Assembly: GCF_964213995.1 (NCBI RefSeq) | Contig: NC_135830.1 | Span: 12,834,001-12,898,000, forward strand | Length of the DNA: 64,000 bases | DNA from: Mustelus asterias | Lineage: Eukaryota | Direction of reading: 5' to 3' | Part shown: in pieces, positions 15,541 through 41,279 of the stretch | Layout: the number at the start of each line of letters is the position of its first letter | How positions within the stretch are numbered: position 1 is the first letter of the stretch | The notes under the pieces: generated by a model | Seen by the model: the letters and a program-made list of their open reading frames with translations, nothing else | Told to the model about the DNA's origin: nothing | Database searches by the model: none | Position numbers and translations under genes: made by a program

Positions 15541-17749
15541 TGAACTGAGAGGTTAGACTTCAGTGAAGTGATTAAGTGATTCACCGAAACAGGCTGCAGT
15601 ACCAAGGAGGTCTAATCCAGGATATATTGAGTTTGCTCAGAATGGACGCAGAATTGCCGTCCAGTCTCCCAATGCGGGTAAATGTGTCTGAGGAAAATGC
15701 AGAGTTAATAGTTTTGGGAGGCAATGGAAATATTGTTGATGCTAGCTAATAAGTTGTTCAGTAAAAGCAATTGTTTATTTGGAAATCATCTGCCCTCCCG
15801 TCGCTTTGTCATCTAGGATTCCTGAGGCTTGGTAATTCTGGTATGCCAAGAGAAAAGAAGTTAGCAAGATTCAACCAGAGGCTACCGGTGTGATTAAAAC
15901 ATTAACCAAGCTGAGATACCTCCTGTAGTTTCTGCTGCGTTGTGAATATCCCGGATATGATGAACGTGGAAGTGAACAATTTGCAAGCAAAGAGTGGTCA
16001 TGTTAAGTGTTCTTCAAAGAGTGAAAAGAAAAGAAAGTAAAGTTTATTTAATCGTCACAAGTAAAGCTTACATTAACACAGCGATGAAGTTACTGTGAAA
16101 TTCCCCTAGTCGCCACACTTAGGCGCCTGTTCTGGCTAAAGTACCTAACCAGCACATCTTTCAGATACTGACACATCCATTGTTCCTGCTGTAATATAGC
16201 CCTGGCTGGCTGCGTTTTGGGCGGGAGATATTGGGTAAATAATTTTAACACATTTCTCTTCTTTCTTACAGCTAATTTCGTGGCCATTCTGATCCTGTCC
16301 AGAGGGAAGTGCGGACTCTCCAAATGCACCTCTCGTTACCTGTTGGCCATGGCAGTCGCAGATCTATTGGTTATTATCACTGATGTCATATTATTAGAAA
16401 TCAGTTCTGATTATTTCGAAAGGTCTTTCCTGCACATCACCCAGATTTGCAGCACTATCCACGTCCTGACTAATGCAGCCACAGACTGCTCCGTCTGGTT
16501 CACCATCACTTTTTCCTTTGATCGTTTTGTCGCAATTTGCTGTCAGAAGCTGAAACAAAAATATTGCTCTGAGAAAACTGCAGCTGTGGTTCTAGCATCC
16601 ACCTCCATCATGCTATGTTTAAAAAATGTTCCCTTCTACTTTACATTTGAACCTGGGGAGGTAATAGACAATGAATCGTGGTTCTGCAATGATGCTCCAA
16701 GCTATTATACCGAGCCTGGATGGGTTGGATTGGACTGGCTTGATAAAATGTTAACACCATTGCTTCCATTCCCTTTAATTCTATTGCTTAACGCTCTGAC
16801 AGTCAGATACGTTTTAGTGGCCAGTCAACTCCGCAAAGGATTGAGGGGTCAGAGGAAAGGGGAGAATCAAACTGACCTGGAAATTCAAAGCAGAAGGAAG
16901 TCGATGATTTTACTCTTCACCGTATCTGGTACATTCATCCTTCTGTGGTTAATATATTTCATAGATTTTCTATATTACACCTTTTTGGGAATAGATCCCA
17001 ATAATTCTAACGAATCCTTATATATCTTTGGAGAATTTGGGTTCATGCTGCGGACATGAAGTTGCTGCGCAAACACATTTATATATGGGGTGACTCAGTC
17101 CAAGTTCAGAGAACAGTTCAAGAGAACATTGAAATACCCGGTCACATTTGTTATTCGATTGACTAATAAACAAAACAACTGACAGCAGCCAATTTGTGGG
17201 TGTCAATCTGCTTCATTCATAGACTATATATTTATTTTACGACATTCAACAACAGAATGCCAGGAATTGCTGGTGATGAAAAGCTTTCTGAGGTAAAAGA
17301 TCAGAAACTCGGATTAGGACAACAGTGGATGTAAGGGATGGCAATTAAATTCCCCTTCGGCAATATGCAGAAACGAGTTTAAACTTGGCTCTGCAAAGCA
17401 AAGCAAAGGGACCAGGAGGGAGAAAGGTCATGATAATCATCAAAGACCTTGCTGAAAAAGAACAGGACCAATCACTTCTCTTGCTGGAAGCAAAAAGCGT
17501 GTCTTCAAAAAGTGCATAACCAAGGCAAACATGGCAGAATGGCTTGAAGGTTATGCAGATCTGATGAAGATCAACTCCACAATTCCACCGGAAACCACCT
17601 GACTTCAACGACTGCAATAGTCCATCATCTACGCCTCATGGACGAAGAAATCACTTGAACATTTATTCTTCTTACTTTAATTTGGACTTTACGATTACTG
17701 ATTCGTGTGTGTTAACCCACGGAAACAGACTGGGTACTCAGACAAGCAC

Positions 17750-19250
17750 TCAGATCCTGCATTGGACCACCAGGAGGGCGAATTTGCAGGCGTCTTTAAC
17801 ATCTCGTTATACTGACCTGAGGTTCTTACCTGTTTCAAGAACACGGACATAAAATAAGAATTTGGCAGCGTACCTTAATGGCTATCGCCCGGTGGCTCTA
17901 ACATCCATCAGTATGAAGTGCTTCAGAAGGTGACTCGTGTCAGACATCAATTCCAGTCTCGCAGAGTGCCTGGATCCATGACAGTTCGCCTATCTCTGGA
18001 ACAGGTCCACAGCAGAATCCATCTCCCTGGCCCTGCACGTAACCCTGGAACAACTGGACAACAAGGATATTTACGTCAGACTCCTACTTATTGACTACAG
18101 CCCAGGCTTCAACACTATTTTCCCTAGAAAAGCTTATCTCCAAAATCTGTGGCCTGGAGCTCGGCTCCCCTCTCTCTACTTTTGGTGGCACAGTTATCAG
18201 CATTTCTGCCTCACAGCGCCAGAGACCCAAGTGCAATTCCAGCCTTGGTCAACTGTCTGTGTGGAGTTTGTACGTTCTCCCCGTGTTGACATGGGTTTCC
18301 CCCAGGTGCACCGGTTTCCTCCGACAGTCCAAAGATGTGCGAGTAGGTTAATTGGCTATTCTTAATTGTCCCTTAGTGTCAGGAGGGCTAGCAGGGTAAA
18401 TACGTAGGGTTACGGGGATAGGTCCTGGGTGAGATTGTTGTTAGTGCAGGCTCGATGGGCGGAATGGCCTCTTTCTGCACTCCAGCGATTCTATGATTCT
18501 ATGACTGGATCCTAGGCTTCCTAATCCACAGAACACAATAAAAAAGATAGATAATGACACCTCCTCCAGAATTATATTTAACGCCAGTGTCCCGAAAGGC
18601 TGTGTCCTCAGCCCCTTACGATATTGCTGATACACTAACGACTGTGCGGCTAAATTCCGCTCCAGCCCCGTTTTGATGTTTTCTGATGACAGCACCGTAG
18701 TCGGGCGAATTTCCAACAATGATGAGAGGGAGTATAGGAGAGAGATAGAGAATCTGATGAACTTGTGCTCCGACAATAATATCTCCCACAATGTCAGTAA
18801 AACGAAGGAGATAGTCATTGACTTCAGGAAACGTCGTGGGGGGGCATGCCGCTGCTTCAGGTTTCTGGGTGTCCAGATCATCAACAACCTTCCCTGGCCC
18901 TTCCATGCTGACACTCTGGCCAGGAAATCACATTAACGCCTCCGTTCTCAGGAGGCTAAGGAAATTTGCCATACCCGCTACGAATCTCACCAATCTTTAC
19001 CGATGCACCATAGAAGCATCCTCTTCGGATGTATCAAAGCTTAGAATGGCTCCTGCTGTGCCCAAGACCGCAAAAAACAACAAGGGGTTGTGAACGAAGC
19101 CCAGCCCATCACTCAAACCAGCCTCCCATCCATTGACACTGTCTACACTTTGCGCTGCCTCCGCAAAGCAGCCAGCAAATCCCGCTGCCTCGGAAAAGCA
19201 ACGGTTATCCATTGTGCCACTAACCCACATGAAGCAGCCACCGCCCTGCT
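17750..19250 (+). mobile_element. Rex1/Babar-like LINE RT remnant with nested HE1 SINE (mirror 39050-43150)
   Basis: Fragments FSDDSTVVGRISNNDEREYR, KTKEIVIDFRK, LRRLRKF, YRCTIE. Confidence 0.85.
18183..18502 (+). mobile_element. HE1 SINE shared by both arms (mirror 42365-42695)
   Basis: tRNA-like head, V-domain and GATTCTATGATTCTAT tail. Confidence 0.88.
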
Positions 19251-19430
19251 TCTGATTCGAACTTTATTCCACAACCTCAGCTGGGTATTCAGGTCAGCTT
19301 CGGAAGAGATGCTGCTGATAAGCTGTTAATTCCCATAAAGTGGAGATGCCGGCGTTGGACTGGGGTGAGCACATTAAGAAGTCTCACAACACCAGGTTAA
19401 AGTCCAACAGGTTTATTTGGTAGCACAAGG

Positions 19431-19465
19431 CACAAGCTTTCGGAACGCTGCTCCATCATCAGGTG
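19431..19465 (-). ncRNA. Minimal hammerhead ribozyme motif (inverted terminus)
   Basis: CAC-CTGATGA-T-GGAGC-AGC-GTTCC-GAAA-GCTT-GTG. Confidence 0.68.
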
Positions 19466-19936
19466 AGTGTTCACAAGCAGGGCATGTAAAGACACAAACT
19501 CAATTTACAACATAATGACAAATACCAGGCAGGAGTATTCTCTTCCTGTTGGGGAACACTTCAGCAGTCATGGGCGTTCAGCCTCTGATCTTCGGGTAAG
19601 CCTTTTCCAAGGATGCCTTCACAAAACACGACAATGCAGGATCGCTGAGCAGAAACTAATAGCCAAGTTCCGCACACATGAGGACGGCCTCAACCGGGAT
19701 CTTGGGTTCATGTCACACTATCTGTAACCCCGACGACTTGCCTGGGCTTGCAAAATCTCATTAACTGTCCTGGCTGGAGACAATACACATCTCTTTAACC
19801 TGTGCTTAACCCTCTCTCCACTCACATTGTATGTACCTTTAAGACGTGATTACCTGTAAAGACTCACATTCCAAATATTATCTTGTAAATTGAGTTTGTG
19901 TCTTTATATGCCCTGTTTGTGAACACAACTCCCACT

Positions 19937-19971
19937 CACCTGATGAAGGAGCAGCGCTCCGAAAGCTTGTG
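19937..19971 (+). ncRNA. Minimal type I hammerhead ribozyme motif in Penelope terminus
   Basis: CAC-CTGATGA-A-GGAGC-AGC-GCTCC-GAAA-GCTT-GTG: stem I CAC/GTG, stem II GGAGC/GCTCC, palindromic AGCT stem III. Confidence 0.75.
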
Positions 19972-20107
19972 GCTTGTGCTACCAAATGAACCTGTTGGAC
20001 TTGAACGTGGTGTTGTGAGACTTCTTACTGTGCAATCCCATGAACCCAGGGCTGGCTATTCAGATCAGCTCCGGGAGAGATGTTTCTGATCATCAGCCAC
20101 GACCCAC

Positions 20108-20610
20108 TGACGTCATTCGGACTTCACAGTGACGTCACATGGCCGACAGTGTGACGTTACATATGCTCGCTTTCTGACGTCACAATACTCGATGCTCTGA
20201 CGTTGGGCGGCATGTTGGCACAGTGGTTAGCACTGCTCCCTCACAGGCAGGGACCCGGGTTCAATTCCAGCCTTGGGTCACTCTCTGCGTGGAGTTTACA
20301 CATTCTCCCTGTGCCTGCATGGGTTCCCTCCGGTGTTCCGGTTTCCTCCCACACTCCAAGGATGTGCAGGTTAGGTTGATTGGCCATGGTGAATTGGCCC
20401 CTAGTGTCAGGGTGATTAGCGGCGTAAATATGTGTAGTTAAGGGGAGGGGGCGTGAGTGGTACTGTGGTCGGTGCACGTTCAATGGCCGAATGGTGTCCT
20501 TCTGCACTGTCGGGATTCTATGATTCTGTGACGTTCAATGCCGGATGCTCTGACGTCAGAATGCCGGATGTTCTGACGTCACACTACCGGATGTTCTGTC
20601 GCATGCGCAC
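20108..20610 (+). promoter_or_regulatory. Phased CRE (TGACGTCA)/ETS array upstream of a TCR V leader, split by an HE1 SINE
   Basis: TGACGT at 20108, 20130, 20152, 20175, 20198 and 20529, 20551, 20574 (22-23-bp period); three CCGGATG motifs; GCATGCGC at ~20601. Confidence 0.7.
20205..20528 (+). mobile_element. HE1 SINE
   Basis: Typical head, V-domain and tail; flanked by a TGACGTT duplication. Confidence 0.9.
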
Positions 20611-20750
20611 TCTCCTCCCCCACACTATCAATGCTGAAGCTCCCTCACGGCTTCACTTTGTGATCACAAGTCCCAGCGACCCGGCTCACACAGCCATTGT
20701 GTGACTGGTTTGGTGCTCGGTTTGATATCCATAAGTCGATAGGATCCAAC

Positions 20751-22912
20751 ATGTTTCTGAGCTTCACTTTTGTGATTATTTTCCTGGATTTCTTACTGTT
20801 CTCTCAGTCTAAGTGTGGTCACAATATCTGACAGGAATATTTCACACCTCAGCAATGTTATGTTCTGTTAAATTGTACTCAGCTTGATTGTATTATCTCG
20901 AATTGTGAATACAATTGTACTTCATTGTGCGACATTATATTACGATATGTTATTACTGCAAATGTACATATTCTTCCCAGATGCCGCTGGCAGTGAAGAG
21001 CTATCACAATCTCCGGAGTGAGTGGTTGTTACCGAGGGAGCCACTGCATCGTTGACCTGTTCAACCACAGTAGCTGGACAAGTCCTACAATGGTGCAGAC
21101 AAAATCCTGACAGAACCATAGAAACCATAGAAAATTACAGCTCAGAAACAGGCCTTTTGGCCCTTCCTGTCTGTGCCGAACCATTTTATGCCTAGTCCCA
21201 CTGACCTGCACTTGGACCATATCCCTCCACACCCCTCTCATCCATGAACCCGTCCAAGATTTTCTTAAATGTTAAAAGTGACCCCGCATTTACCACTTTA
21301 TCCGGCAGCTCATTCCACACTCCCACCACTCTCTGCGTGAAGAAGCCCCCCCCCTAATATTCCCTTTAAACTTTTCTCCTTTCACCCTTAACCCATGCCC
21401 TCTGGTTTTTTTCTCCCCTAGCCTCAGCGGAAAAAGCCTGCTTGCATTCACTCTATCTATACCCATCAAAATCTTATACAACTCTATCAAATCTCCCCTC
21501 AATCTTCTACGCTCCAGGGAATAAAGTCCCAACCTATTCAATCTCTCTCTGTAACTCAGCTTCTCAAGTCCCGGCAACATACTTGTGAACCTTCTCTGCA
21601 CTCTTTCAATCTTATTTACATCCTTCCTGTAACTAGGTGACCAAAACTGTACACAATACTCCAAATTCGGCCTCACCAATGACTTATATAACCCTACCAT
21701 AACACTCCACCTTTTATACTCGATACTCCGATTTATAAAGGCCAATGTACCAAAGGCACTCTTTACGACCCTATCCACCTGTGACGTCACTTTTAGGGAA
21801 TTCTGTACTTGTATTCCCAGATCCCTCTGTTCAACTGCACTCTTCAGAGTCCTACCATTTACCCAGTACGTTCTTCTTTGGTTTGTCCTTCCAAAGTCCA
21901 ATATCTCACACTTGTCTGCGTTAAATTCCATTTGCCATTTTTCAGCCCATTTTTCTAGTTGGTCCAAATCCCTCTGCAAGCTTTGAAAACCTTCCTCACT
22001 GTCCACTACACCTCCAATCTTTGTATCATCAGCAAACTTGCTGATCCAATTGACCACATTATCATCCAGATCATTGATATAGATGACAAACAACAATGGA
22101 CCCAACACCGATCCGTGCGGCACACCACTAGTCACAGGCCTCCACTCAGAGAAGCAATCCTCCACAACCACTCTCTGGCTTCTTCCATTGAGCCAATGTC
22201 TTATCCAATTTACTACCTCCCCATGTATACCGAGCGACTGAACCTTCCGAACTAACCTCCCATGAGGGACCTTGTCAAAGGCCTTGCTGAAAGCCAGGTA
22301 GACAACATCCACCGCCTTCCCTTCATCCACTTTCCTGGTAACCTCCTCGAAAAACTCTAATAGATTGGTCAAACATGACCTAACACGCACAAAGCCATGT
22401 TGACTCTCCCTAATAAGTCCCTTTCTATCCAAATATTTGTAGATCCTATCCCTTATCACACCTTCCAATAACTTGCCCACTATCGACGTCAAACTTACTG
22501 GCCGATAATTTCCCGGATTTCTTTTGGAACCTTTTTTAAACAACGGAACAACATGAGCCACCCTCCAATCATCCGGCACCTCCCCCGTGAATACTGACAT
22601 TTTAAATATGTCTGCCAGGGCCCCTGCAAGTTCAACGCTAGCTTCCCTCAAGGTCCGTGGGAATACCCTGTCCGGTCCTGGGGATTTATCCACTCTGATT
22701 TGCCTCAAGACAGCGAGCACCTCCTCCCCTTTAATCTGTAAAGGTTCCTGCAGCACCTGGTGAGCGATCAGGGCAGGATCACGGCTCGATACAGTTTCGC
22801 AGAGAAACGCAGTGTTCTGAATGTCAGTGAACTGGACTGACAGACACCGCTACCTAGTTCTGTGCGATGGAGGCACAGTGGAGCAAAAACCATTTGGGGC
22901 TGTACAAAAACC
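20751..22912 (+). pseudogene. TCR V-alpha/delta pseudogene interrupted by CR1 (leader ~20751-20810; V 20981-21117 + ~22749-22873; RSS 22874-22912)
   Basis: Leader MFLSFTFVIIFLDFLLFSQ with mutated donor; V reads ELSQSPE*VVVTEGATASLTCSTTVAGQVLQWCRQNPDRT/LQHLVSDQGRITARYSFAEKRSVLNVSEL..TDTAT*FCAME; CACAGTG-23-ACAAAAACC. Confidence 0.88.
21118..22748 (-). mobile_element. Young CR1 LINE 3' part with long open RT frame
   Basis: ORF 21290..22756, 488 aa, with NYRPVSLTS, GVPHGSVLGP, KFADD; repeated TTTCTATGG-type tail. Confidence 0.95.
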
Positions 22913-23103
22913 TGCTGCGATCATCCGAAAGCTGTATAGTCTGTGTCGAGAGCAGGGGATTTAATCACTCCCTTTTTTGGATACGCACCACAGTCACCCT
23001 ATCAGTGAGATCTGTTCCTGATTTGGGGTTACTCTTTGATATCAAGAGAAGGGACAAAATACATTTAAATTCGGTTGTTTTCTGTGGAAATGTCATCCGG
23101 GAA

Positions 23104-23480
23104 ACACGTGTTCCATGGTGCTTCCAGATTGAAATAACCGTGCTATTCGGTAAGTTAATATTCAAATAATCCTTATCTATTTCCTGTGATGGATCCAATT
23201 CCAGTCTGTTTGGTTGCAGGGACGAGTGACACACGTTGAATTTCCCAGAATCCATTAGAGTTGAAGGCTCTGGAGGGACAGACAGTAACGTTAAGGGACA
23301 GCCACGCCATATCTGGAAGCTTTCTGTATCAATCTAGACAGAGCAGTATTCTGGGTAAGTTACAGAATGTTTCATGAGGAAGTAGAGGCCCAGACATTGA
23401 GATAAGCCCCAAGATATTTCCGACCGGTTCGCTGTTGATTTGAACGAACAAAGGCAACAATGCACCTGTTCGATAAATAA
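23104..23480 (+). pseudogene. Degraded TCR V relic (leader ending 23149; V exon from 23220)
   Basis: ..PWCFQIEITVLFG|GTAAGT, 70-nt intron, TTGCAG|GTSDTR*ISQNPLELKALEGQTVTL...DISDRFAVDLNEQ; no RSS seen. Confidence 0.65.
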
Positions 23481-24079
23481 ACGACGAAGTCATCCCACTT
23501 TCACAGAAAAGTGGACAGGGATCGATAAATGTCAGTTATTGCATTGCTATTTGTTACCATCTGGAGTAGGGCGCCGCAAACTACAAGGGAAGAGCATTCA
23601 ATAGTAAATTTCAAAATGAATTGTCAGACCTTGAGAACGGAATGCGTGGTGAAAAGGACAATTGGGAACGACCTTTCATAGAGCCACAGGGAGAGTCAAT
23701 TGTTTCTGATCCATTCACGCCCGTCCGTCACTATTTCTTTCTCAGTCACTTGAGCAGTGACCAGATGCAGGCTTGTCACCAACTGCTGCAAATTCAGCCG
23801 TCGCTATTTCCACTGCCGCTGAGAACTTTGCATTTTCATCAGCTTTGAGTCTGCGGTGTCCCCGGCCACAGCTTCCGTTTGCTGTTCTCACTCGAACACC
23901 ATTGTGAGTTTCTAGACATTGCTGTCGCTGGTTAATTTCTGTCATTGGTTAGATCAGCAGCGCAACTTTTAAGTGTATTTATTAGTGTCGCGAGTGGGCT
24001 TACATTAACACTGCAATGAAATTATTGTGGAAATCACCTAGTCGCCACACTACGGCGCCTGTTCTGGTCAATGCACCAA

Positions 24080-24240
24080 CCAACACGTCTTTCAGTCTGT
24101 GGGAGGAAATCAGGGCACCAGGAGGAAACCCACACAGACACGCGGAGAACATGCAGACTCCGCACAGACCATGACCGAAGCTTGGAATCGAACCCTGATC
24201 CCTGGCACTGTGAGGCAGCACTACGAACCACTGTGCCACA
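24080..24240 (-). mobile_element. HE1-related SINE head
   Basis: GTGGCACAGTGGTTCGTAGTGCTGCCTCACAG...GGTTCGATTCC and V-domain on the minus strand. Confidence 0.8.
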
Positions 24241-24793
24241 ATAACATAATAATTAACCAGCAGAACCACAGGCTTCCTCTGGAAATTGATCTATTTTTAA
24301 ATTAATTTGATTCCAAAAACTGGGCAAACCTCCTTTTGAAGCACCTCCCGATCCCGAAATCTCTAATATCTGGAAGGACAGGGGTAGCAGACACAAGGGG
24401 ACATCACCTCCGGTCACACACCATTCTGACTTGGAAATGTATCGCCATTCCTTTAGATATGCTGGGTGCGAAAACCCTTCAAATCACTTTACGAATAATA
24501 CCTTTAAGATTTTGTGTAGCGGGCAAAAGACTAGAAATGTGAGGAAGCAAAAGTGCAAGAAAGTGAGAAATAAAGATTTCAAAATGCAAACTAAAAAGGT
24601 ACGAACAAAATATAAAGAAATCCATAAATAAAGGGAAATGCATTTCCTCTCAACTGACTCGCATTTCCATTGCGTCTATTTGCAGTGCTATATTGTTTGA
24701 AACACATCTCTCAAAAGAAAACCACTGGAAAATGTATCATTGACGACCTTGCACATTTTTGGTGATCGGGACAGTGTACAGTTCCCTGACTCA

Positions 24794-24809
24794 CCGTCAG
24801 AGGGCGCTG
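24794..24809 (+). promoter_or_regulatory. Candidate CTCF site
   Basis: CCGTCAGAGGGCGCTG, close to the CTCF core CCACCAG(A/G)GGGCGC. Confidence 0.45.
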
Positions 24810-25194
24810 TCATCGCATGTTTCTCCTCGTTCCCAACCGGGAATTACTGAAAAAAGTTTCGTGGAGCGATTCCCAGTGGCAGCCGCACCCGGAGCCTTAT
24901 TTCACTGCTCAGCCTCTGATCCGCCTTACCCGCCCTTGTATTATTTAAGATGATGCCGCCGATGTCCACTATTCAGTACTGGTTATATCAGCAATGTGCT
25001 GGGCCGGGAATCTGTATTCCCGCTCCCGCAGAAGATTCCCGAATCTGCGGAGTTACAGACTGACATAAAGGGAAGCGGAACCACAGTTCATCGCTTTTCA
25101 TCATGATCATTATTCGTCAGCACGTTTTCCCAGTTATAAATATCTGTTGTCCTCCTGACTGCTGTCACTCAAATCTTACTGTCGCGAAAGAATG

Positions 25195-25412
25195 ATGACT
25201 TATTTGTTAAAAGCAAATTTCTGCGGATGCTGGAACCTGAACCCAAAAGGGAAAACGTTGGAAACTCTCAGCAGGTCTGGCAGCATCAGTAAGGAGAGAA
25301 AAGAGCTGATGTTTCAATTCCAGATGACCCTTTGACAAAGCTTTATAGTCAGATCTTTTCTCTCTTACACATGCGGCCAGACCTGCTGAGATTTTCCATG
25401 ACTTATTTGTTA
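25195..25412. mobile_element. Fold-back short element with 15-bp TSD
   Basis: ATGACTTATTTGTTA at 25195-25209 and 25398-25412; internal inverted arms CTCAGCAGGTCTGGC/GCCAGACCTGCTGAG. Confidence 0.8.
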
Positions 25413-25414
25413 TT

Positions 25415-26480
25415 CTTCGGTCTTTAATCTGTCATGTGCAGTTTCCTGTTCTAGCCCTCAGTCCACTGATTCTGATCCCGGTTTCCGCCCTTTCACTAAC
25501 CCCTGGATTTGTTCTGCCAGGGTATCGAACTGGGGAATAAATTTCCTGCAGTAACTAAACAAACACATCACCCGCCGTGCCCCGCGCATTGTTGTGGGTC
25601 GGAGCATGTTAGCGATGGCGGTTTTGCGGTCTGTGGGAAGAATCTTGTTTCCCTGAATTATGTCACGACCCAAGTATCGTACTGTAGTCTGTCCGATCTG
25701 AGCTTTTCTTGGGTTTTCCTTGAATTCCGTCATCTCCAATGTGCACAATCCTGTGGCCCGAGCTCCCAAATGTTCACGCTCAGTCTCCGAGGCTATCAGG
25801 AGGTCATCGACGCATTGTAAGATAGTGCTATTATATGGGGCGAGATCGGATTTTTCTAAGTCCCTATTCATGACTCGGTGGAAGACGTTTGGGCTGTTAT
25901 GAAACCCTTGCGGTAAGCGGGTCCAGGTATCTCGCTTTCCCTTTGAAGTAAAAGCAAACTTCTCCTGTGATTCCGGATCTAAAGGGACGGACCAGAATCC
26001 ATTTGCTATGTCTAGGATTGTGAAAATTCTGTATTCTGGGCGGAGTCCATTGAAGATGGTCGTTGGACTGGCCACCATAGGGTGTTCCCTCAGGGTCACC
26101 TTATTTAGAGCGGTGTAATCTAACGTTAAATGGTAACATCCGTCCGGTATCCAGATCGGTCACACTGGCGAGTTGGTGACCGAGACCGCTGGACGTAGGA
26201 TGCTTTGCCGGACTAGTTCCCGCACTATCTCTTCCTTGGCCTTCAGGGACTCTGGCTTGATGGGATATTGTCGGTGCGGCGGGTATGTTGGCCCTGCAAT
26301 CTTTTCTGAGGTCGTTTGTATAAGACCACAATCCTGCTTACTAGTCGCCCACACCCCGGGAATGGCCTGGCATAACTTCCCAAATGCTCCATCCTTTGAC
26401 CAATCTCTGGTCAGGGGGTCCGTGTTTGCGCTGGCTATCTTGGGAACATTCCGCAAAGAGGCCCATTTCCCGACCATCCG
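25415..26480 (-). pseudogene. pol: ERV reverse transcriptase (disrupted; YVDD mutated to CVDD)
   Basis: ORFs 26160..26477 (RQYPIKPES, TNSPV) and 25458..26099. Confidence 0.92.
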
Positions 26481-26579
26481 GTCTTTGTGTCACTTTTTGG
26501 CGGTCCCGATTAGCTGTCCACTTCGGGCATTTACAATTGCCCCTAATTCCTCTCGGTCGTCCATTCCCAAGATGGAGCC

Positions 26580-29200
26580 CTCAGGTTAGGACATACCCAA
26601 AACTGAGCGGGCAGCATTATTTCATCTATCTCTAGTAATGTTGGTTCGCTTTTATATGCATTAATTTTCTCTTCCCCCCCACCTCCCCCACACCACCACC
26701 ACCACTCCAATTACCGTGATGTGGTGTGGGGTAGAGGGAATGTCCAAATTAATTAAAGGCACCGAAGCCCCCGTATCAACTAATGGTGCATTAACCCACA
26801 TACGGGGATCGGTTCCTTTCCAGGGGGCCAACGCTATTCGCGGCATCGGGTCTGGATGATACCGTGCAATCATCTGGTTGACATCAGAGAGATTCTCGTC
26901 GGAATCTCTGTCCCTCTCCCGGTACCGTTGGGGCCCCCTGACCTCCTGACCGCCCCCTTTTCCCCAACATTCCCTTGCTTTGTGTCCCATTTTATTACAA
27001 TTTCTGCATTTCTTTCTATTGTCTCGTTTCGGGGCTCTACATTCGGCGCGATGTTGCCCTGGTTTATGGCAATTATAACATGCCCCCTCTGTCTTTGCAG
27101 CGGCAATGGCGCTGGTGTCTGTCATATTCAGCGGGGCAACGACGACTACCTTAGATTTCTGGTGGTTATCTACAACCGTTGCCCAACTTTCCAAATCACC
27201 ATAATTGTTAAAAGATACCAGCCCTGACTTTAGTATCGCCTCGTGCTCAAGACTAAGTCCGTCATGATATAATTGGAGGAAGGCTGGGGTCTGCCGATCG
27301 GCATTTGGCACACCGCTATGTGCACGGAAAGATTCAACTTCCTGTTCCCATATTCTTGTGCTCCTTCTCCTTTGTTTTGGGTGACCCCTACGATGGCATT
27401 CCAATTTCCGGGAACCTGACCTAGGGTATCAATTACGTCGGCGTTAAAAGCCAGGAAGTCTTGGGCGTTTGCGGTCAGCTCCGCAGACCAAGTTCCATCC
27501 TGGTGGGCACCCTGCAATCGCAGCCAGTAGTTTTCAGGCATGAGGATGAAAGTACCCAGACTGCCTCCTTCCACCTGTGTGACCTCATGTCTCAGCCCAT
27601 CCAAATTCCTGCCTTTATAAACCTCCATACGCTCGACTATTCCCCAGTTCAACTGGCTTGAGTTCTTCCGGGATTCTGCTGCCTGCTGCCTGCATTTTAA
27701 CTCGTTCCAAGGCCTGGTCACACTACATCCCTGTGCTCCCATTCCAGTAACATCTCAATGTTAAAATCCCTCCCTAACCTTGCCCCCGTTTATCTCTGTA
27801 ACTTCCTCCAGCCCAACAGCTCTGCGGTTTCAATCATTCTGCCCATCCCTCATTTTAATCAGACACCCACTGGCAGCCATGCCTTCAGTTGCCTCCAAGT
27901 TCTGAAACATCCTCCCTAAAGCTCTCTGATTCTCCTCATTTTTGTTCTAACTTGCCCCGCAACATCCCGATTGTGGATTTGATGGCAGACCTGCATTACT
28001 TTAAGCTTCTGCCAGAAAACTGCGTTACTACTGTGCGGCTTCAGTACAGATAATTTATCCAGCAATGCCATAGTCTCCCCAGGGGATAGGGAGACATATA
28101 GAATCATAGAATCCTACAGTGCAGAAAGAGGCCATTCGGCCCATCGAGTCTGCACCGACCACAATCCCACCCAGGCCCTATCCACACATCCCTACATATT
28201 TACCCACTAACCCCTCTAACCTATGCATCCCGGGACACTAAGGGGCAATTTATCATGGCCAATCAACCTAACCCGCACATCTTTGGAGTGTGGGAGGAAA
28301 CCGGAGCACCCGGAGGAAATCCACGCAGACACGAGGAGAATGTGCAAACTCCACACAGACAGTGACCCAAGCCGGGAATCAAACCCAGGTCCCTGGAGCT
28401 GTGAAGCAGCAGTGCTAACCACTGTGCTACCGTGCCGCCCATTATGTCAACCTCAACTGAGGTGGTCGTGCTGGTGCCCCCGGGGGCTACTCCCCACATT
28501 CCCAGTTCGGCAGGAATCGCTGGGATGTATTCAATCTTTCCAGGGGCTGCTGTAAATTGAGTCTCTGGGTCATAAGGGGCGGGGCGTCCCGCTTCCTCCC
28601 GAAACCTTTACTGAGCAGCTCTAACGTCTTTGTTGTCCAATCTACATCCACGGTATAAGACGGGATTTGTTCCGTGACTGCTGGCAACACTGTCTGTCCT
28701 GTCAAAACTGACAGCTGTTGTTTTGTGCTGTTAACATATGCATTTACCTTTTCTGTCAGAACTACATGGGCACGAAGTATTAACACCAATGCCTTTTCAT
28801 CCTTTACTTTCATTTCGGCCTTCCACCACTCCCACTGGTTTTCTGGGGGGTCGTGGGGCTTCCAACCTGATTTGTCAATAACTTTCTTATTTTTCTCCGC
28901 GGCTCAAGGAGCCTTCTGGCCCCCATTCGAGCTCGCTTTCCTTACTTATAATGATTGGGTGGGATTAGAACCGTTAGAAATCCACTCTCAGAAGTCCACG
29001 CTTACATTCGCGCTACTTGGAGTGGACACGTCTCTTGGCTAATTGTCTGACACAAGTCGGTTACTTATTCTAATACAGTAAACAATATCCGGCAATGCCT
29101 ACGTCTCTTAACGAAATACCCACTGCCGTTTTGTCTGCTGGCCACACCCTATTCACAAGTTCGGAAATTCGTCAGTCGCCGAACATCACCCATGTCCCGG
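26580..29200 (-). pseudogene. gag: ERV gag-protease (frameshifted; interrupted by a SINE and an L2-like fragment ~27750-27940)
   Basis: ORFs 28487..28813, 27916..28107, 27230..27742 and 26661..27404 (CYNCHKPGQHRAEC, CRNCNKMGHKAREC, LVDTGAS). Confidence 0.85.
28097..28440 (-). mobile_element. HE1 SINE inserted in ERV gag
   Basis: Near-consensus copy, reverse complement of 9625-9960. Confidence 0.92.
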
Positions 29201-29268
29201 GATATGTCTGTACTGATAATGAGTAAATATACTCACCCGGTCCTCTGATGGCATCGGTCGACTGAGAA

Positions 29269-29286
29269 ATCCGAGTCACGGCACCA
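29269..29286 (-). promoter_or_regulatory. Primer-binding site complementary to tRNA-His
   Basis: TGGTGCCGTGACTCGGAT is the complement of the tRNA-His(GTG) 3' 18 nt, 3 nt after the LTR; candidate splice donor GG|GTGAGT at ~29236. Confidence 0.93.
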
Positions 29287-29289
29287 AAC

Positions 29290-30058
29290 TGTTAGCGGGA
29301 GAGAATCTCAAATAAATCACTCAACACTCAGGGTTGGTCCTCGCATCAAACGGTTTATTTTCGCCGGCGGGGAGATAGCTTCTGTTAAACCCAGTGCCTC
29401 TTTCCGATGAACAAAGGAAAAACATCCATTCTTATACATTTTTCAAACATCTACACAGTCCATCACAGCTGGACCTTGTCCAATAATATTGATTACAGAT
29501 TACATACAGCTGTCACATATCCAATGAAAACGGTATTACGTAAGGTGGGCTTGTGCATGATCAGCTCGTGGTCTCATGGACACGACTCATGGTACCTCAG
29601 TCAATATTATCGTTCTTTCTCCCATCTGGAGTCCTTGAGTGTGCAATACTCCTTGCCCAGTGGGCCTCCTTATCATCTCCCATGACTGTCCTCCCTAATC
29701 CTCCGTGTCTGGTTTTCATCCGAGACCTCAGATCATAGACTGGGACCAGTCACCAGTATCTGTGTTCTATTGTATACAAGCTTATGCTCAAGCCAGCTAA
29801 TGATGTTCAGGAATGTGGCCAAAAGCTAGCATCCATCTTGTGTCGTTTTACTATCCTGAGCTCCTTTTAACATGGTGGAGTTTTCATGCATGCCCTTTGT
29901 GATCGTATAACAGTAAATTCATACATATTTATTATATATTATTTATTCCTACTCATATAAATTGCTATACAGGCACCTTTGAATATAAATTGTTATACAT
30001 GCAGCTAAACCAAGGATATTGTTTCCTCTTAACCTATTCTTTAAATCTCCCCTCAACA
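29290..30058 (-). repeat. 5' LTR of the ERV (769 bp)
   Basis: Starts TGTTGAGGGGAGA and ends TCTCTCCCGCTAACA (TG..CA, imperfect inverted ends); TATAA at ~29432-29436; AATAAA at 29354-29359; host repeat unit resumes at 30059. Confidence 0.85.
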
Positions 30059-30450
30059 TCATCTTCCGTCGAATAATTTCAACCAATTGTTCTCAGTAAT
30101 TCTTTTGTTATTCAATATTTAATGTCAATACGCTATTTAACACAAATGTCCTCATTATGAATTGAATATCTCTGCATTTGAATATCACTGAATAGCAAAC
30201 ATAACTGACCAACAAATGGAATCGAGTCACCGGGTAATACAGATTCCATGGTGCTCTATTTGCGATTGACCACATTCAGCTTTTGAACAAAGTCAACTAT
30301 CTTTGAATGGAAGAGATTGAAGAATTATCTGTTAGTTACACTTGAGCCTTTTTTATTAGGGGCGTGAAACATTCAGGCACATAAATTCCGGCAATCTATG
30401 GGATAGTCCAATAGATCCGCACTGAGTCTCGATTTCCTCATCTGTCTGAG
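30059..30450 (-). repeat. Dispersed partial copy of the tRNA-Val array spacer
   Basis: TCATCTTCCGTCGAATAATTTCAACCAATTG...GATCCGCACTGAGTCTCGATTTCCTCATCTG matches the array unit (e.g. 1160-1200 + 3710-4060). Confidence 0.85.
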
Positions 30451-30459
30451 TATTTCTGC

Positions 30460-31850
30460 AGCTCAGAAACAGCTGCACAGTGGGAGGACCCCGTCACTGT
30501 GGTCCATGTAGCTACCAATGACATAGGTAGGACAAAGGAGGAGGATTTGCATGGTTAGTATGAGGACCTAGGTATCAAATTAAGAAGCAGGATCTCAAAG
30601 TTCATAATCTGTGGATTATTACCTGATTCACTTGCTAATTGTCTTAGGACAAATCAGATCGGAGAGATGAATGTGTGACTCAAGGACTGATGTTGGGAGC
30701 ATGGTTCTGTTTCATGGGACACTGACACCAGTACTGGGGAAAACAGTTTAAAACTAAAAAGTGGACAGGGAATCAAATTAGGGGCAAGGAATCAAAAAAA
30801 TTATATAAATGACTGGATGAAGAGATGTTTGGCAAATTTGCCGATGACACAAAGATAGGTGAGAAAGTAAGTTGTGACGAGGACATACGGAGGGTTCAGA
30901 AAGACAGAAAGATTAAGTGAGTGGGAAAATATCTTGCAAATGGAGTAGAATTTGGGCAAATGTGAAATTGTCCATTTTTGCAGGAAGAATGAAAAAGAAG
31001 CATTTTGTCTAAATGGTGATAGATTGCAGAGCTCAGAGATTCAGAGGTACTTTGAGTGTCCGAGTGCATAAATCACAAAACACGAATAAGCAGGTAAAGC
31101 AAGTAATTAGGAAAACTATTAGAATGTTTTCATTCATTGTGAAGGGAATTGAATACAGAACTAGGAAGATTATGCTTCAGTTGTACAGGTCACTAGTGAG
31201 ACCGCATCTGGAGTACTGTGTACATTATTGATCACCTTGTTTAAGGAAGGATGTAAGTATGCTGGAGACAGTTCGGAGAAGGTTTATCAGACCAATACTT
31301 GAAATGATGTGGAGATGCCGGTATTCGACTGGGGTGGGCACAGTAAGAAGTCTCACAACACCATGTTCAAGTCCAAAAGTTTTATTTGGAATCACGAGCT
31401 TTCGGAGTGCTGCTCCTTCCTCAGGTGAGGAAGGAGCAGCGCTCCAAAAGCTCGTGATTCCAAATACACCTGTTGGTCTTTAACCTGGTGCTGTGAGACA
31501 TCTTACAATGCCTGAAATTGATGGGCTGTGTTATGAGGAATGGTTGGACTGGCTGGAGTGTATCCGCTGGAGTTTAGAAGAGTAAGTGGCGACTTGTTCC
31601 TGCAGGGTCTTGACAGGAAGGAGGCAGAGAGAATGCTCCTTCTTGTGGGATAATCTAGAACTAGGGGTCACCTATTTAAAGTAGGGATGAGATTCCTTCT
31701 CCAAGTGTCGTGAGTCTTTGGAGCTCTCTTCCTGAAAAGGTGGTGGAAGCAGAGTCTTTGAATATTTTAAGGCCGAGGTAGATGGATTCTTGGTAAGCAA
31801 GGGGGTGAAAGGATATTAGGGGTCAGCCGGAATAAGATTTAAGGTTACTA
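30460..31850 (+). mobile_element. Old CR1 element, internally deleted (ORF1 SGNH-esterase remnant + RT remnant)
   Basis: PVTVVHVATNDIGR at ~30490 (GxND block); KFADDTK at ~30834; RPHLEYC at ~31200. Confidence 0.8.
31309..31512. mobile_element. Palindromic element of two head-to-head Penelope termini
   Basis: Arms mirror about TCAGGTGA (~31424); minus-strand hammerhead CAC-CTGAGGA-A-GGAGC-AGC-ACTCC-GAAA-GCTC-GTG at 31393-31427. Confidence 0.8.
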
Positions 31851-32379: not shown

Positions 32380-32655
32380 GTGAGAGCGGCACTCGGTATG
32401 TGAGGGGGAGCCAGGAAAATAGGAAGAGGAAACCATGCAGGGCTCTGGAGCCTGAGAGATTGAGTAGATTGTGCCAAATTTGTTTTATGCATTTGTGGGG
32501 CATGGGCATCGCTGGCTGGTCACCATTGATTGCCCATCCCCAGTTGCTCTTGTTAATTAGATGTGTTTGAGTGGCTGACATCCTCGTTGTGATTACATCT
32601 TCCCGAGATTCTTGACAATCTCAACTGGCAGGAACCGCAGTTTCAATCGGAAGAC

Positions 32656-32694
32656 AGTTTTTGTACAGGGTTGGCGCTGTTTTCAATTACTGTG
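32656..32694 (-). promoter_or_regulatory. 23-bp-spacer recombination signal sequence
   Basis: CACAGTA-23-ACAAAAACT directly after the V exon. Confidence 0.9.
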
Positions 32695-33004
32695 AGTCCC
32701 AGGGCGCAGTAATACACGGCAGCGTTAATCGGCTGCAAGTCCATGATGGTTAACCTTGTGGTGGAGTGTGACAGCTGCAGGTCTGAAGCAAAACGGTTTC
32801 CTAACGCCGAGCCTTTCCATTCCACGGTATCCCAAGACCTTCTCCATACAATAAATTGGGGCTCCTTCGCTGGTTGCTGCAGGTACCAATGTACATAGTA
32901 CCAACCTTCTGTAGTGCTATAGGTACATTTTATAGTCACGGCTTCACCTTCTCTCACGCTCGCTGATGCCCGAGACTGAGTAACTGAATCTCCATCACTG
33001 TGAC
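32695..33004 (-). CDS. V exon of intact TCR V-alpha/delta gene segment
   Basis: TTGCAG|GHSDGDSVTQSRASASVREGEAVTIKCTYSTTEGWYYVHWYLQQPAKEPQFIVWRRSW...AAVYYCALG; conserved C23, W41, C104; open frame. Confidence 0.93.
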
Positions 33005-33094
33005 CTGCAATGTGTTCAGGAAGAAGACAAGACCGTAGGTTAACACAACACTAACATTTCAGTTCGAATAGAACACGATTGGAATCATCCTTAC

Positions 33095-34869: not shown

Positions 34870-35168
34870 ATTCCAGCTGATCCGTGTAACCCAGTTCAAT
34901 TCTCCAATCCTCTGCCGCAGGTGACAAGGTTACCTTAAGCTGTGAATATTCAGGGAACTGTCAGCATTCTGGTACTGTCAGTCCCCAGGACAGGCTCTGA
35001 AATACTTGCTTCGGACACACACTTCGGGAGAGGGGAAGAAAAAAAATGCTGCCGGGTACAGAATTTCTGTTTATACCCATTCTTCAGTCAAAATCTGCAA
35101 GTTCGAAATCTCCAAACGACAACTGAGCGACTCTGCTGTGTATTACTGTGAACTGAGTGGACGTACGG
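34870..35168 (+). pseudogene. Leaderless TCR V-delta pseudogene resembling the NAR-TCR supporting V
   Basis: Acceptor CCTGCAG; RVTQFNSPI..AGDKVTLSCEYSGNCQH/FWYCQSPGQALKYLLRTHTSGE...QLSDSAVYYCELS; extra Cys in CDR1; frameshifts; no hydrophobic leader exon visible upstream. Confidence 0.75.
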
Positions 35169-35351
35169 CACAGTGACACAAAACACGGAGTGAGCTGTAC
35201 AAAAACCTGGACATGGTGAGGATTACTGCCACAGTGATACAGAACACGGAGAGAGCTGTACAAACATCTGAACATGGTGCGGATTACAGACACAATGATA
35301 CAGAACACGGAGAGAGCTGTACAAAAACCTGCTCATGGTGAGGATTACAGA
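35169..35351 (+). repeat. Three tandem 61-bp units, each a 23-RSS
   Basis: Heptamers at 35169 (CACAGTG), 35230 (CACAGTG), 35291 (CACAATG); nonamers at 35199 (ACAAAAACC), 35260 (ACAAACATC), 35321 (ACAAAAACC). Confidence 0.95.
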
Positions 35352-35356: not shown

Positions 35357-36260
35357 TGGAGATGCCGGTTTTGGACTGGGGTAAACACAGTAAAACGTCT
35401 CACAACACCAGGTTAAAGTCCAACAGATGTATTTGGTAGCACAAGCCACTAGCTTTCGGAGCGCTGTTCCTTCATCAGGTGAGTGGGATTTCAGTTCACA
35501 AACAGGGCATATAAGGACACAAATTCAATTTACAAAATAATGGTTGGAATGCGAGTCTTTACAGGTAATCACGTCTTAAAGGTACAGACAATGTGACTGG
35601 AGAGAGGGTTAAGTACAGGTTAAATAGATGTGTATTGTCTCCAGCCAGGACAGCCAGTGAGATTTTGAAAGCCCAGGCAAGTCGTGGGGGTTACAGATGG
35701 CGTGACATGAACCCAAGATCCCGGTTGAGGCCGTCCTCATGTGTGCAGAACTTGGCTATCAGTCTCTGCTCAGCGACTCTGCGTTGTCGTGTGTCGTGAA
35801 GGCCTCCTTGGAGAACGCTTACCGGAAGATCAGAGGCTGAATACCCGTGACCGCTGAAGTGTTTCCCTACAGGAAGAGAACACTCTTGCCTGGTGATTGT
35901 CGAGCGGTGTTCATTCATGCGTTGTCGAAGCGTCTGCAAGGTCTCCGCAATATACCATGCCTTGGGACATCCTTTCCTGCAGCGTATAAGATAGACAACG
36001 TTGGCCGATTTGCAAGTGTATGGACCGTGTACCTGGTGGATGGTGTTCTCACGTGAGATGATGGCATCTGTGTCGATGATCCGGCATGTCTTGCAGAGGT
36101 TGCTGTGGCAGGGTTGTGTGGTGTCGTGGTCACTGTTCTCCTGAAGGCTGGGTAGTTTGCTGTGGACAATGGTCTGTTTGAGGGCCTGGGCTTGCAAAAT
36201 CTCGCTAACTGTCCTGGCTGGAGACAGTACACATCTCTTCAGCCTGTGCTTAACACAGAT
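35357..36260 (-). mobile_element. Penelope-like element 3' part with GIY-YIG endonuclease domain
   Basis: CKSANVVYLIRCRKGCPKAWYIAETLQTLRQRMNEH...GLNRD in ORF 35691..36416; terminal hammerhead at 35447-35481; partial inverted repeat 36185-36257. Confidence 0.92.
35447..35481 (-). ncRNA. Minimal hammerhead ribozyme motif
   Basis: CAC-CTGATGA-A-GGAAC-AGC-GCTCC-GAAA-GCTA-GTG (one stem II mismatch). Confidence 0.68.
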
Positions 36261-36509
36261 AAACCGGATTCTGCAGAACCTACAAAATAAAGCAAAATAT
36301 TTCTGTGATGCCTTTACCTGCCTTGCATGTGAGTTTGCCCGGGGAAACATAATCGCCTCCATAGCTGGCCATTTTGCCGTAATTGTTTCATTGAAGGGTG
36401 TTCGACATTTATTCACTATAGTTGGGGCGACGGTGGCATAGACGTGTTATCACTAGATTAGATATCCAGAGATTTAGTAAGCCAAGTAATACTCTGGGGA
36501 CACGGCTAT

Positions 36510-37478
36510 GAATCATAGAACCATTGATGATATGGGTAGGAGGAAGTTATTTGGTCCTGCGAGCCTGCTCCTCCATTCATTAGGATCATGGCTGATAATC
36601 CAACTCAATAGCCTGATCCTGCTTTTTCCCCATAACGTTTGATCCCATTCGCCCCACGTGCTTTATCCAGCCGCTTCTTGAATAGATTCAATGTTTTCGC
36701 ATCAACTAGTTCGCGTGGTAATGAATTCCACAGGCACACAACTGTTTGGGTGAAGAATTGTCTCCTCACCTCCATCCGAAATGGTCTAACCTGTATCCTG
36801 ACCCCAGTTTCTTGGACTCCCCCATCAGAGAACATAGAACATAGAACAGTACAGCACAGAACAGGCCCTTCGGCCCACGATGTTGTGCCGAGCTTTATCT
36901 GAAACCAAGATCAAGCTATCCCACTCCCTATCATCCTGGTGTGCTCCATGTGCCTATCCAATAACCGCTTAAATGTTCCTAAAGTGTCTGACTCCATATC
37001 ACTGCAGGCAGTCCATTCCACACCCCAACCACTCTCTGCGTAGAAAACTACCTCTGAAATTCTTCCTATATCTTCCCCCACGAACCCTATAGTTATGCCC
37101 CCTTGTAATAGCTCCATCCACCCGAGGAAATTGTCTTTGAACGTTCACTCTATCTATCCCCTTCATGATTTTATAAACCTCTATTAAGTCTCCCCTCAGC
37201 CTCTTCCGCTCCAGAGAGAACAGCCCTAGCTCCCTCAACCTTTCCTCATAAGACCTACCCTCCAAACCAGGCAGCATCCTGGTAACTCTCCTCTGCACTC
37301 TTTCCAGCGCTTCCACATCCGTCTTATAGTGAGGTGACCAGAACTGCACACAATATTCCAAATGTGGTCTCACCAAGGTCCTGTACAGTTGCAGCAGAAC
37401 CCCACGGCTCTTAAACTCCAACCCCCTGTTAATAAAAGCTAACACACTATTGGCCTTCTTCACAGCTCTATCCACTTT
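36510..37478 (-). mobile_element. Two adjacent CR1 3' fragments
   Basis: ORF 36999..37475 (RPHLEYCVQFWSP) and 36605..36835; AGAACAT repeat tail at 36828-36848. Confidence 0.9.
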
Positions 37479-37524
37479 GTGGAATTAAGATCTGATCAGA
37501 AGCAGTGTGGTGGTTGCTTCATGT

Positions 37525-37597
37525 GGGCTAGTAGTACAATGGATAATGCGTCTGATTACGGGTCAGATGATTCCAGACTCTGTTCCTGGCTGGCTCG
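37525..37597 (+). pseudogene. tRNA-Arg(ACG) degenerate copy
   Basis: GGGCTAGTAGTACAATGGATAATGCGTCTGATTACGGGTCAGATGATTCCAGACTCTGTTCCTGGCTGGCTCG, 73 nt, collinear with vertebrate tRNA-Arg(ACG); B-box mutated. Confidence 0.85.
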
Positions 37598-37639
37598 ATG
37601 TAAACTTGGTGGCAGTTCGTCAACTCTCCGTTTTGAACA

Positions 37640-37706
37640 GTTTCTGCTGTGGTCATCACATTCACCTCACACGCGAAAGATCCCGGTTCGAAACTGGGCG
37701 GAAACA
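37640..37706 (+). pseudogene. tRNA-Val(CAC) pseudogene
   Basis: GTTTCTGCTGTGGTCATCACATTCACCTCACACGCGAAAGATCCCGGTTCGAAACTGGGCGGAAACA; intact B-box, deletion in the 5' half. Confidence 0.85.
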
Positions 37707-37767
37707 TTAATAAAACTTTCTCAGTTCGGTTGTGGGAAATCTGCAAGATTTCAATTTTTTATGGTCC

Positions 37768-41020: not shown

Positions 41021-41279
41021 TTTACTGACATTGTGGGAGATATTATTTTCGTCGCACCAGATTCTCTATCTCTCTCCTGCACTCTGTCCTGTCATTGTTT
41101 GAAATCCGCCCGGCTATGGTGGTGACATCAGAAAACATTAGAATGGAGTTGGAGCGGAATTTACCTACACAGCAATTAGTGTTTCAGCAGTATAGCAAGG
41201 GGCTGAGGAAACAGCCTTTCGGGACACTGGTGTTAAGTAAAGTTGTGTTCCGTGGATTAGGAAATCTAGGATCCAGTCA

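What the first reader, a model, noticed from the sequence alone, without database searches (positions are those of the whole stretch)
25415..30058. Endogenous retrovirus with an unusual mix of class features
Seen: tRNA-His PBS; Gag with two CCHC knuckles running in frame into the protease with no stop (ORF 26661..27404); RT motifs TILDIANGFWS and WTRLPQGFHNSP. Known: foamy-virus RT has LDLANGFW and WTRLPQGFLNSP, but foamy Gag lacks CCHC boxes and uses a Lys primer; gamma/epsilon viruses typically have one knuckle and a gag amber stop, and walleye epsilonretroviruses use His. Inference: a basal retroviral lineage (lokiretrovirus-, snakehead- or class III-like) in sharks, possibly undescribed.
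Basis: partly seen in the sequence, partly recalled or inferred. Interest (0 to 1): 0.7.

Follow-up and report, generated by a model that had tools for sequence, protein, structure and literature searches.

The report
Shark retrovirus fossil, F-type envelope family
This is a dead, truncated retrovirus fossil in a shark genome. Its "missing gag stop" is only deletion damage, but its family branches just outside the gamma/epsilon retroviruses, has very recent intact relatives, and carries an envelope predicted to fold like the RSV/paramyxovirus fusion protein.

Summary
The element is real but dead: LTR, tRNA-His PBS, broken gag and protease, RT, then truncation (no RNase H, integrase, env or 3' LTR).

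The claimed gag-pol fusion is an artefact. Deletions removed the stop in this copy. An in-frame TGA stands there in 14 of 14 sister-family copies and 5 of 7 other own-lineage loci. Only one knuckle is intact here; relatives have two.

The "foamy" RT motifs are shared with snakehead retrovirus (SnRV) and are not diagnostic. It is not a lokiretrovirus.

In a Pol tree of the intact sister family, the shark lineage is sister to the clade holding gamma/epsilon viruses (100/99). It lies outside epsilon (AU p=5e-9) and apart from SnRV (p=0.02), foamy and ERV-L.

The sister family uses a Pro primer, is very young (LTR pairs 0-5 differences in about 607) and has an env whose predicted structure matches RSV/Nipah F and walleye virus Env.

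I found no paper describing the family. The scan noted similar shark elements on other genomes before. Verdict: new variant of a known kind; interest 0.4.

The parts
29290..30058 (-). 5' LTR, 769 bp, TG...CA, with AATAAA near its 3' end
   Evidence: 91-95% identical to 20 other LTR hits in G000
29269..29286 (-). Primer binding site for tRNA-His
   Evidence: 17 of 18 bases match host tRNA-His gene L245:1501-1572 plus CCA; His-type PBS also in 7 other loci of the lineage besides the window's duplicate
26840..28964 (-). gag remnant in five pieces (frameshifts, stops, deletions)
   Evidence: tblastn with sister-family Gag, 39-66% identity
28100..28441 (.). Host SINE-like repeat inserted in gag
   Evidence: repeat family D1/D11; absent from related copies
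27039..27080 (-). First NC knuckle, degenerate (canonical His lost)
26967..27008 (-). Second NC knuckle, intact CCHC; 19 of 28 residues identical to the SnRV knuckle region
26780..26870 (-). gag-pro junction with several deletions, one of which removed the stop codon
26490..26837 (-). Broken protease remnant (DTGA motif kept)
25416..26489 (-). Reverse transcriptase (one internal stop at 26160-26162; YVDD changed to CVDD) and start of the tether domain; the element is cut off at 25416

Best explanation
The window holds a dead, 3'-truncated copy of a shark endogenous retrovirus whose intact relatives have gag, an in-frame UGA, pro-pol and env between LTRs; Pol was likely made by UGA readthrough, and entry was likely by an envelope predicted to have the paramyxovirus/RSV F fold. 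Shown: the anatomy of this copy and of its relatives, the TGA at the junction, two knuckles in intact Gag, PR-RT-tether-RNase H-IN order, an env with one RSKR site and no CX6CC, His primer in the window's older lineage and Pro primer in the young sister family. Inferred: readthrough (by analogy with MLV, SSSV and ZFERV), env function (structure prediction only) and the position of the lineage as sister to the gamma/epsilon clade (trees without lokiretrovirus, fish foamy-like or CmiERV rows). The window copy decayed after insertion by point mutation, small deletions, a SINE insertion and loss of its 3' half.
For: Junction: TGA in 14 of 14 sister copies, with knuckles and protease in one frame in 13 of the 14; TGA in 5 of 7 other own-lineage loci, visible in the printed context of a sixth, junction absent in the seventh. 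Window and sister family form one RT clade (100/98). Pol tree, 23 rows x 843 columns: shark family + P0001 + P0003 (98/94) is sister to P0004 + P0006/P0010 + gamma/epsilon/SSSV, joint support 100/99, with SnRV, foamy and ERV-L-like rows outside; same topology in three quick trees. RNase H is 42-47% identical to gamma/epsilon, 37% to SnRV and 26-29% to foamy. Env model (pLDDT 70) hits RSV F at E=1.6e-9 and Nipah F, and WEHV-1, WDSV and feline foamy Env. The env profile matches WDSV Env over 311 columns, probability 95%, against only 44 transmembrane columns for MLV Env. The same env family is found in 6 broken own-lineage copies. UGA at the gag-pro junction is reported for SSSV, ZFERV and RMEV (PMC13517186).
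Against: RT alone does not resolve the deep position: the backbone is a polytomy. A shark+foamy clade is not rejected (AU p=0.23 on RT; p=0.063 on Pol). Rejection of shark+SnRV is modest (p=0.022) and SnRV is a long branch. The Pol signal may be driven by an RNase H or integrase that was swapped (PMC7947760). Fold-search TM-scores are low (0.2-0.3), and no Pfam or PDB sequence match supports the env. The window copy has no env or RNase H of its own; those traits are read from relatives. A stem predicted 3' of the stop is no better than shuffles (z -1.1).
Confidence: 0.8

Rival explanations
1. It is simply a member of the SnRV-like clade (clade Huo, CmiERV lineage I), already known from cartilaginous fish.
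For: SnRV is the best named match for the sister RT (41%, 225 bits, against 172-189 for gamma, epsilon and most foamy rows). RT motifs are nearly the same. The NC knuckle region matches SnRV at 19 of 28. The env profile matches SnRV Env over 279 columns, probability 50%. CmiERV lineage I, read by eye from its supplement, has the same RT motifs and a TGA after gag.
Against: Pol trees exclude SnRV from the shark + class I clade (100/99); AU p=0.022. RNase H and integrase are closer to class I than to SnRV. SnRV has one knuckle and UAG. CmiERV lineage I has one knuckle and a gamma-type env with CX6CC (read by eye).
Confidence: 0.12
2. It is an ordinary epsilon-like (class I, ERV1) fish ERV and would be filed so by repeat libraries.
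For: His PBS as in WDSV, WDSV-like Env, class I-type RNase H, in-frame stop, and mostly 4-bp target duplications (7 of 9 pairs), the ERV1 value in PMC4299795.
Against: A clade with WDSV/WEHV is rejected (AU p=6e-8 on RT; p=5.5e-9 on Pol). The family sits outside the gamma/epsilon/SSSV clade (100/99). RT reads NGFW where WDSV, MLV and SSSV read NAFF or DAFF.
Confidence: 0.06
3. It is a lokiretrovirus or a foamy-like virus of sharks.
For: F-like Env as described for lokiretroviruses (PMC7947760); DxxNGFW motif; shark+foamy not rejected by AU tests.
Against: All 24 Loki rows of the paper's RT alignment have PFG where this element has PQG (read by eye). The paper groups loki and foamy RNase H together, while this RNase H is of the gamma/epsilon type. 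The 13 foamy genomes fetched have no knuckle and put pol in a separate overlapping frame.
Confidence: 0.02
4. The lineage has a naturally fused Gag-Pol frame without stop or frameshift.
For: The window and its 99.6% duplicate on contig C108 show an open frame across the junction.
Against: The open frame arises from deletions private to this copy; every other copy with a junction has TGA.
Confidence: 0.005

Closest known systems
Snakehead retrovirus (SnRV; L101, matched to the paper's RT row and 10,688-nt length)
   Same: gag, in-frame stop, pol; RT motifs; NC knuckle context; non-gamma Env weakly homologous to this Env
   Different: SnRV has one knuckle, UAG, an Arg-type PBS (label recalled), accessory ORFs and a more distant RNase H and integrase; it falls outside the shark + class I clade
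Epsilonretroviruses WDSV/WEHV (L179, L174, L178)
   Same: His PBS, in-frame stop, RNase H type, homologous Env without gamma-type hallmarks
   Different: one knuckle, UAG, accessory genes, different RT motifs; a joint clade is rejected
SSSV, ZFERV, RMEV (UGA-readthrough aquatic retroviruses; PMC13517186)
   Same: UGA at the gag-pro junction
   Different: SSSV (L202) has one knuckle and sits inside class I; ZFERV Env is gamma-type (PMC9967133); ZFERV and RMEV were not in my trees
CmiERV lineage I of elephant shark (PMC4422223)
   Same: cartilaginous fish host, same RT motifs, TGA after gag (read by eye)
   Different: one knuckle, different PBS, gamma-type env with CX6CC; not placed in my trees
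Lokiretroviruses (PMC7947760)
   Same: F-like Env with an RXKR site; tether plus RNase H
   Different: RT has PFG, foamy-type RNase H, NYNRIN-like integrase; reported absent from the cartilaginous fish screened

Membership tests
Retroviridae (vertebrate ERV) | LTR-gag-pro-pol-env-LTR with tether plus second RNase H; RT inside retroviruses | tested here: met
   intact relatives; RT clade of 53 retroviral rows 100/100 against Ty3/Gypsy and caulimovirus rows
Lokiretrovirus | RT sister to all other retroviruses | tested here: inconclusive
   no Loki sequence was available to the tree; the motif differs from 24 of 24 Loki rows (PFG against PQG)
Lokiretrovirus | RNase H grouping with foamy viruses | tested here: not met
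   42-47% to gamma/epsilon, 26-29% to foamy; similarity, not a separate tree
Lokiretrovirus | Env related to paramyxo/pneumovirus F, RXKR site | tested here: met
   (predicted structure, sister family)
Spumaretrovirinae / foamy-like | Gag without CCHC; pol in a separate frame | tested here: not met
   two knuckles and an in-frame stop against foamy genomes
Spumaretrovirinae / foamy-like | RT/Pol clade with foamy viruses | tested here: inconclusive
   never recovered but not rejected (AU p=0.23 and 0.063); fish foamy-like rows missing
Epsilonretrovirus | RT/Pol clade with WDSV/WEHV | tested here: not met
   AU p=6e-8 and 5.5e-9
Epsilonretrovirus | His PBS, in-frame stop, non-gamma Env | tested here: met
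   (stop is UGA, not UAG; the sister family uses Pro)
SnRV-like / clade Huo | Pol clade with SnRV | tested here: not met
   AU p=0.022, modest, with SnRV a long branch
Class III ERV-L / ERV4 | no Gag zinc finger, 5-bp target duplication, dUTPase in ERV3 (PMC4299795) | tested here: not met
   two knuckles, 4-bp duplication in 7 of 9 pairs, no dUTPase; ERV-L-like rows form their own clade
Gamma-type Env | CX6CC motif and immunosuppressive domain | tested here: not met
   no CX6CC, no TLV_coat Pfam hit
Named Repbase/Dfam shark ERV family | high DNA identity to a library entry | not testable with these tools

The most novel reading that the evidence does not exclude
This shark lineage, with a minnow relative, is the earliest branch of the class I side of the retrovirus tree and shows that the RSV/paramyxovirus-type F envelope is the ancestral retroviral entry protein, kept in foamy, loki, snakehead, this family and walleye viruses and replaced by gamma-type Env several times. 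Its Pro-primed family, with identical LTRs, is still invading shark genomes.
Probability: 0.3. Interest if true: 0.65.

Novelty: new variant of a known kind. Interest (0 to 1): 0.4.

Why it matters
The single window copy is an ordinary fossil, and its most striking claimed trait is damage. The family matters more. It fills the gap between snakehead retrovirus and the gamma/epsilon viruses, and it carries an envelope predicted to be F-type, homologous to the odd Env of walleye viruses. A 2023 review (PMC9967133, passages) reads the walleye Env as a recent development from a gamma-type ancestor. An F-type Env in a lineage that branches before class I, with homologues in other sharks and in frogs, makes the opposite order testable. 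The young sister family also marks a very recent retroviral invasion of a shark germ line.

Tried and rejected
Fused Gag-Pol: rejected.

MLV-like readthrough structure: a stem can be drawn starting a few bases after the TGA, but its folding energy is not beyond shuffles (z -1.13, -1.45, 0.03 and -0.11 in four copies; the MLV control gave -2.15).

Env by sequence: no Pfam or PDB match. The first structure model, from 8 sequences, failed (pLDDT 27). The Atlas search gave no result.

The search for related loci with the sister RT found nothing in viral contigs; pattern scans supplied the references instead.

Expression: no RNA holder listed on record. Contigs of four runs cover gag, pol and env of the sister family, and one guessed-RNA run shows far higher contig depth over LTR and env than over gag-pol. 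These are contigs with no DNA control and no splice joint, so they are not counted as evidence.

Lokiretrovirus, fish foamy-like and CmiERV sequences were seen only in paper supplements and were left out of the trees.

Rows dropped: the Pol tree uses 23 of the 37 to 39 rows tried; the RT AU tests use 34 of 63 rows.

Literature searches found no description of this family. Most subscription journals and Repbase were not searchable, and bioRxiv supplements are closed.
Full report
Observation. The element lies on the minus strand. It starts with a 769-bp LTR (30058-29290) and a PBS (29286-29269) that matches a host tRNA-His gene at 17 of 18 bases. gag survives in five pieces, 39-66% identical to a relative's Gag, with a host repeat inserted at about 28100-28441. 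The frame 26661-27428 has no stop and carries the NC region and a DTGA motif. Only the second knuckle is canonical; the first lacks its canonical His. Both RT motifs are present, but the RT has an internal stop and CVDD in place of YVDD. The match to Pol ends at 25416, inside the tether domain. Contig C108 holds a 98.4-99.7% identical copy of window 13506-31460, flanks included, so it is a duplicate or second haplotype, not an independent insertion.

Relatives in the genome. A search with the window RT scored 150 of 17,667 candidates. Nearly all belong to a family 63-67% identical in protein, and more than 20 of the 150 show a 1204-residue open pol frame (the list is biased towards intact copies). 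Three copies mapped in full show LTR, a 506-codon gag frame with two knuckles, TGA, pol in the same frame, a 632-758-codon env frame and LTR. Pol carries protease, RT, tether, RNase H and integrase, and no dUTPase. This sister family has a Pro-type PBS (same PBS as the gamma genome L099). Of 10 further copies, 9 gave both LTRs, with 0, 0, 0, 0, 1, 1, 2, 2 and 5 substitutions in about 607 bases; 7 of the 9 have a 4-bp target duplication. The window's own His-primed lineage is older and, in all copies I saw, broken: three two-LTR copies differ by 4.8, 9.6 and 14.3%, and none of 20 other LTR hits is followed by a PBS. With the rates assumed in PMC10699275 and PMC4422223, 4.8% would mean about 50-110 million years; this is uncorrected and rough.

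The junction. Aligned to related copies, the window lacks 11, 13, 7 and 24 bases around the gag-pro junction, and one deletion removes the stop. TGA stands at that place in 14 of 14 sister copies and in 5 of 7 other own-lineage loci; a sixth shows it in the printed context and the seventh has no junction. The family therefore has the gamma/epsilon layout with an in-frame stop. Readthrough is inferred. UGA at this site is reported for SSSV, ZFERV and RMEV, and UAG for SnRV and WDSV (PMC13517186, passages); L202 and L101 agree. No significant RNA structure follows the stop.

Phylogeny. References came from pattern scans of viral contigs and a protein search. SnRV, WDSV, Xen-1, BFV and FFV were labelled by matching rows of the PMC7947760 alignment, MoMLV and SSSV by length or junction in PMC13517186. 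The other labels (WEHV, gamma, alpha, beta, delta, ERV-L-like) are my reading of motifs and genome layout. In the RT tree (63 rows, 266 columns; bootstrap not fully settled) the window groups with its lineage (100/99), the sister family (100/98), and P0001 and a Heterodontus protein (100/99); deeper nodes are open. In the Pol tree (23 rows, 843 columns) the sister family, P0001 and a Pimephales protein (98/94) are sister to a clade of P0004, P0006/P0010 and gamma/epsilon/SSSV, jointly 100/99, while SnRV, foamy and ERV-L-like rows lie outside. AU tests reject a clade with WDSV/WEHV (p=6e-8 and 5.5e-9), weakly reject one with SnRV (p=0.022), and do not reject one with foamy viruses (p=0.23 and 0.063). 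By domain, RT is closest to SnRV among named viruses, whereas RNase H is of the gamma/epsilon type. Lokiretroviruses were not in the trees; all 24 Loki rows in the paper's alignment have PFG where this element has PQG (read by eye).

Envelope. The sister env has one RSKR site and no CX6CC, and no Pfam or PDB sequence match. Close homologues are named by their sources from Mustelus, Chiloscyllium, Pristiophorus and Heterodontus; more distant ones from Scyliorhinus and the frogs Pelodytes and Mantella. A model built on 32 sequences (pLDDT 70, pTM 0.45) matched RSV F (E=1.6e-9), Nipah, Hendra and hPIV3 F in the PDB, and insect mononegavirus glycoproteins, baculovirus F, WEHV-1, WDSV and feline foamy Env in BFVD. 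TM-scores were only 0.2-0.3, as expected if conformations differ, but this limits confidence. Profile comparison gave WDSV Env 95% over 311 columns, foamy Env 71% over 252, SnRV Env 50% over 279, and MLV Env 27% over 44 transmembrane columns. Fragments of the same env family occur in 6 broken copies of the window's own lineage, so the trait applies to the window's lineage although this copy lost it.

What is known. SnRV-related and epsilon-related ERVs are described in elephant shark (PMC4422223: part 1 of 2 of the text, part 1 of 3 of supplement 1). Its lineage I shares the RT motifs and a TGA but has one knuckle and a gamma-type env (read by eye). Clade Huo spans all vertebrates (PMC6001957, passages). 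Shark ERV RTs are mostly clade III in one screen (PMC11089739, passages). A foamy-like catshark ERV is reported (PMC10699275, parts 1-2 of 4). Lokiretroviruses have F-like Env and were not found in the cartilaginous fish screened (PMC7947760, parts 1-3 of 4, supplement parts 67-68 of 82 and a term search). Knuckle number varies among these groups (PMC1224870, passages): one in WDSV, SnRV, SSSV and MLV, two in Xen-1. Walleye Env lacks gamma-type hallmarks and is read as recent (PMC9967133, passages). Also consulted as passages or parts, without a description of this family: PMC12193657, PMC10435555, PMC13709493, PMC4299795, 10.1101/2023.10.26.564294 and 10.1101/2021.11.23.469661 (parts 1-2 of 6). 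Eight searches found no paper on it; unseen supplements and repeat libraries may hold it.

Earlier scan notes. Two notes on other genomes describe shark ERVs with F-type Env that are not lokiretroviruses. I had reached the F-type reading before that look-up. They file the elements near SnRV; my Pol tree puts this family nearer class I.

Verdict. The feature is a real but dead ERV copy. Its apparent Gag-Pol fusion is decay, and each other trait is known from some aquatic retrovirus. The combination (two knuckles, UGA, His or Pro primer, class I-type RNase H, predicted F-type Env) and the position as sister to class I fit no named group I could test. New variant of a known kind; interest 0.4.

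Noticed in passing
window 32643-33050 (-), 34946-35207 (+), 22858-22912 (+): Immunoglobulin V-set segments (Pfam) and 23-bp-spacer recombination signals; the ERV appears to sit among T-cell-receptor-like V genes. The signal at 35169 is followed by two more 61-bp repeats.
   Followed up: partly
window 15831-20032 against 35386-45000: Large inverted duplication (about 84-93% in its main arms) around the ERV, each arm with a rhodopsin-family GPCR ORF (16172-17059 + and 43649-44743 -).
   Followed up: partly
L040:4613-9999 (G000:C5): A different, class I-type ERV (one knuckle, TAG, open pol frame of at least 1041 codons) lies within or next to a His-lineage copy.
   Followed up: partly
P0159 cluster, P0158, P0144: Env homologues in frogs (16 cluster members from Mantella, most 677 aa; one from Pelodytes) and a Chiloscyllium protein that its source names Ig-like domain-containing.
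   Followed up: no
G000:C8:27.80-28.48 Mb: Tandem array of about 2-kb units carrying tRNA-His-like, tRNA-Asn, tRNA-Lys and tRNA-Thr genes.
   Followed up: no
L015:1400-10000, run X2: Contig depth over LTR and env is some 25-fold above gag-pol in one guessed-RNA run; could be a spliced env RNA or pol-deleted copies; not evidence as it stands.
   Followed up: partly
G000:C200, C567, C714, C745, C746, C319, C1124, C1152, C1883: Near-identical His-lineage fragments on many small contigs, embedded in tandem repeats, likely amplified with a satellite.
   Followed up: no
window 1666-2799, 9095-9802, 21290-22849, 39913-40947, 49185-49784: Non-LTR (LINE-type) reverse transcriptase remnants.
   Followed up: no
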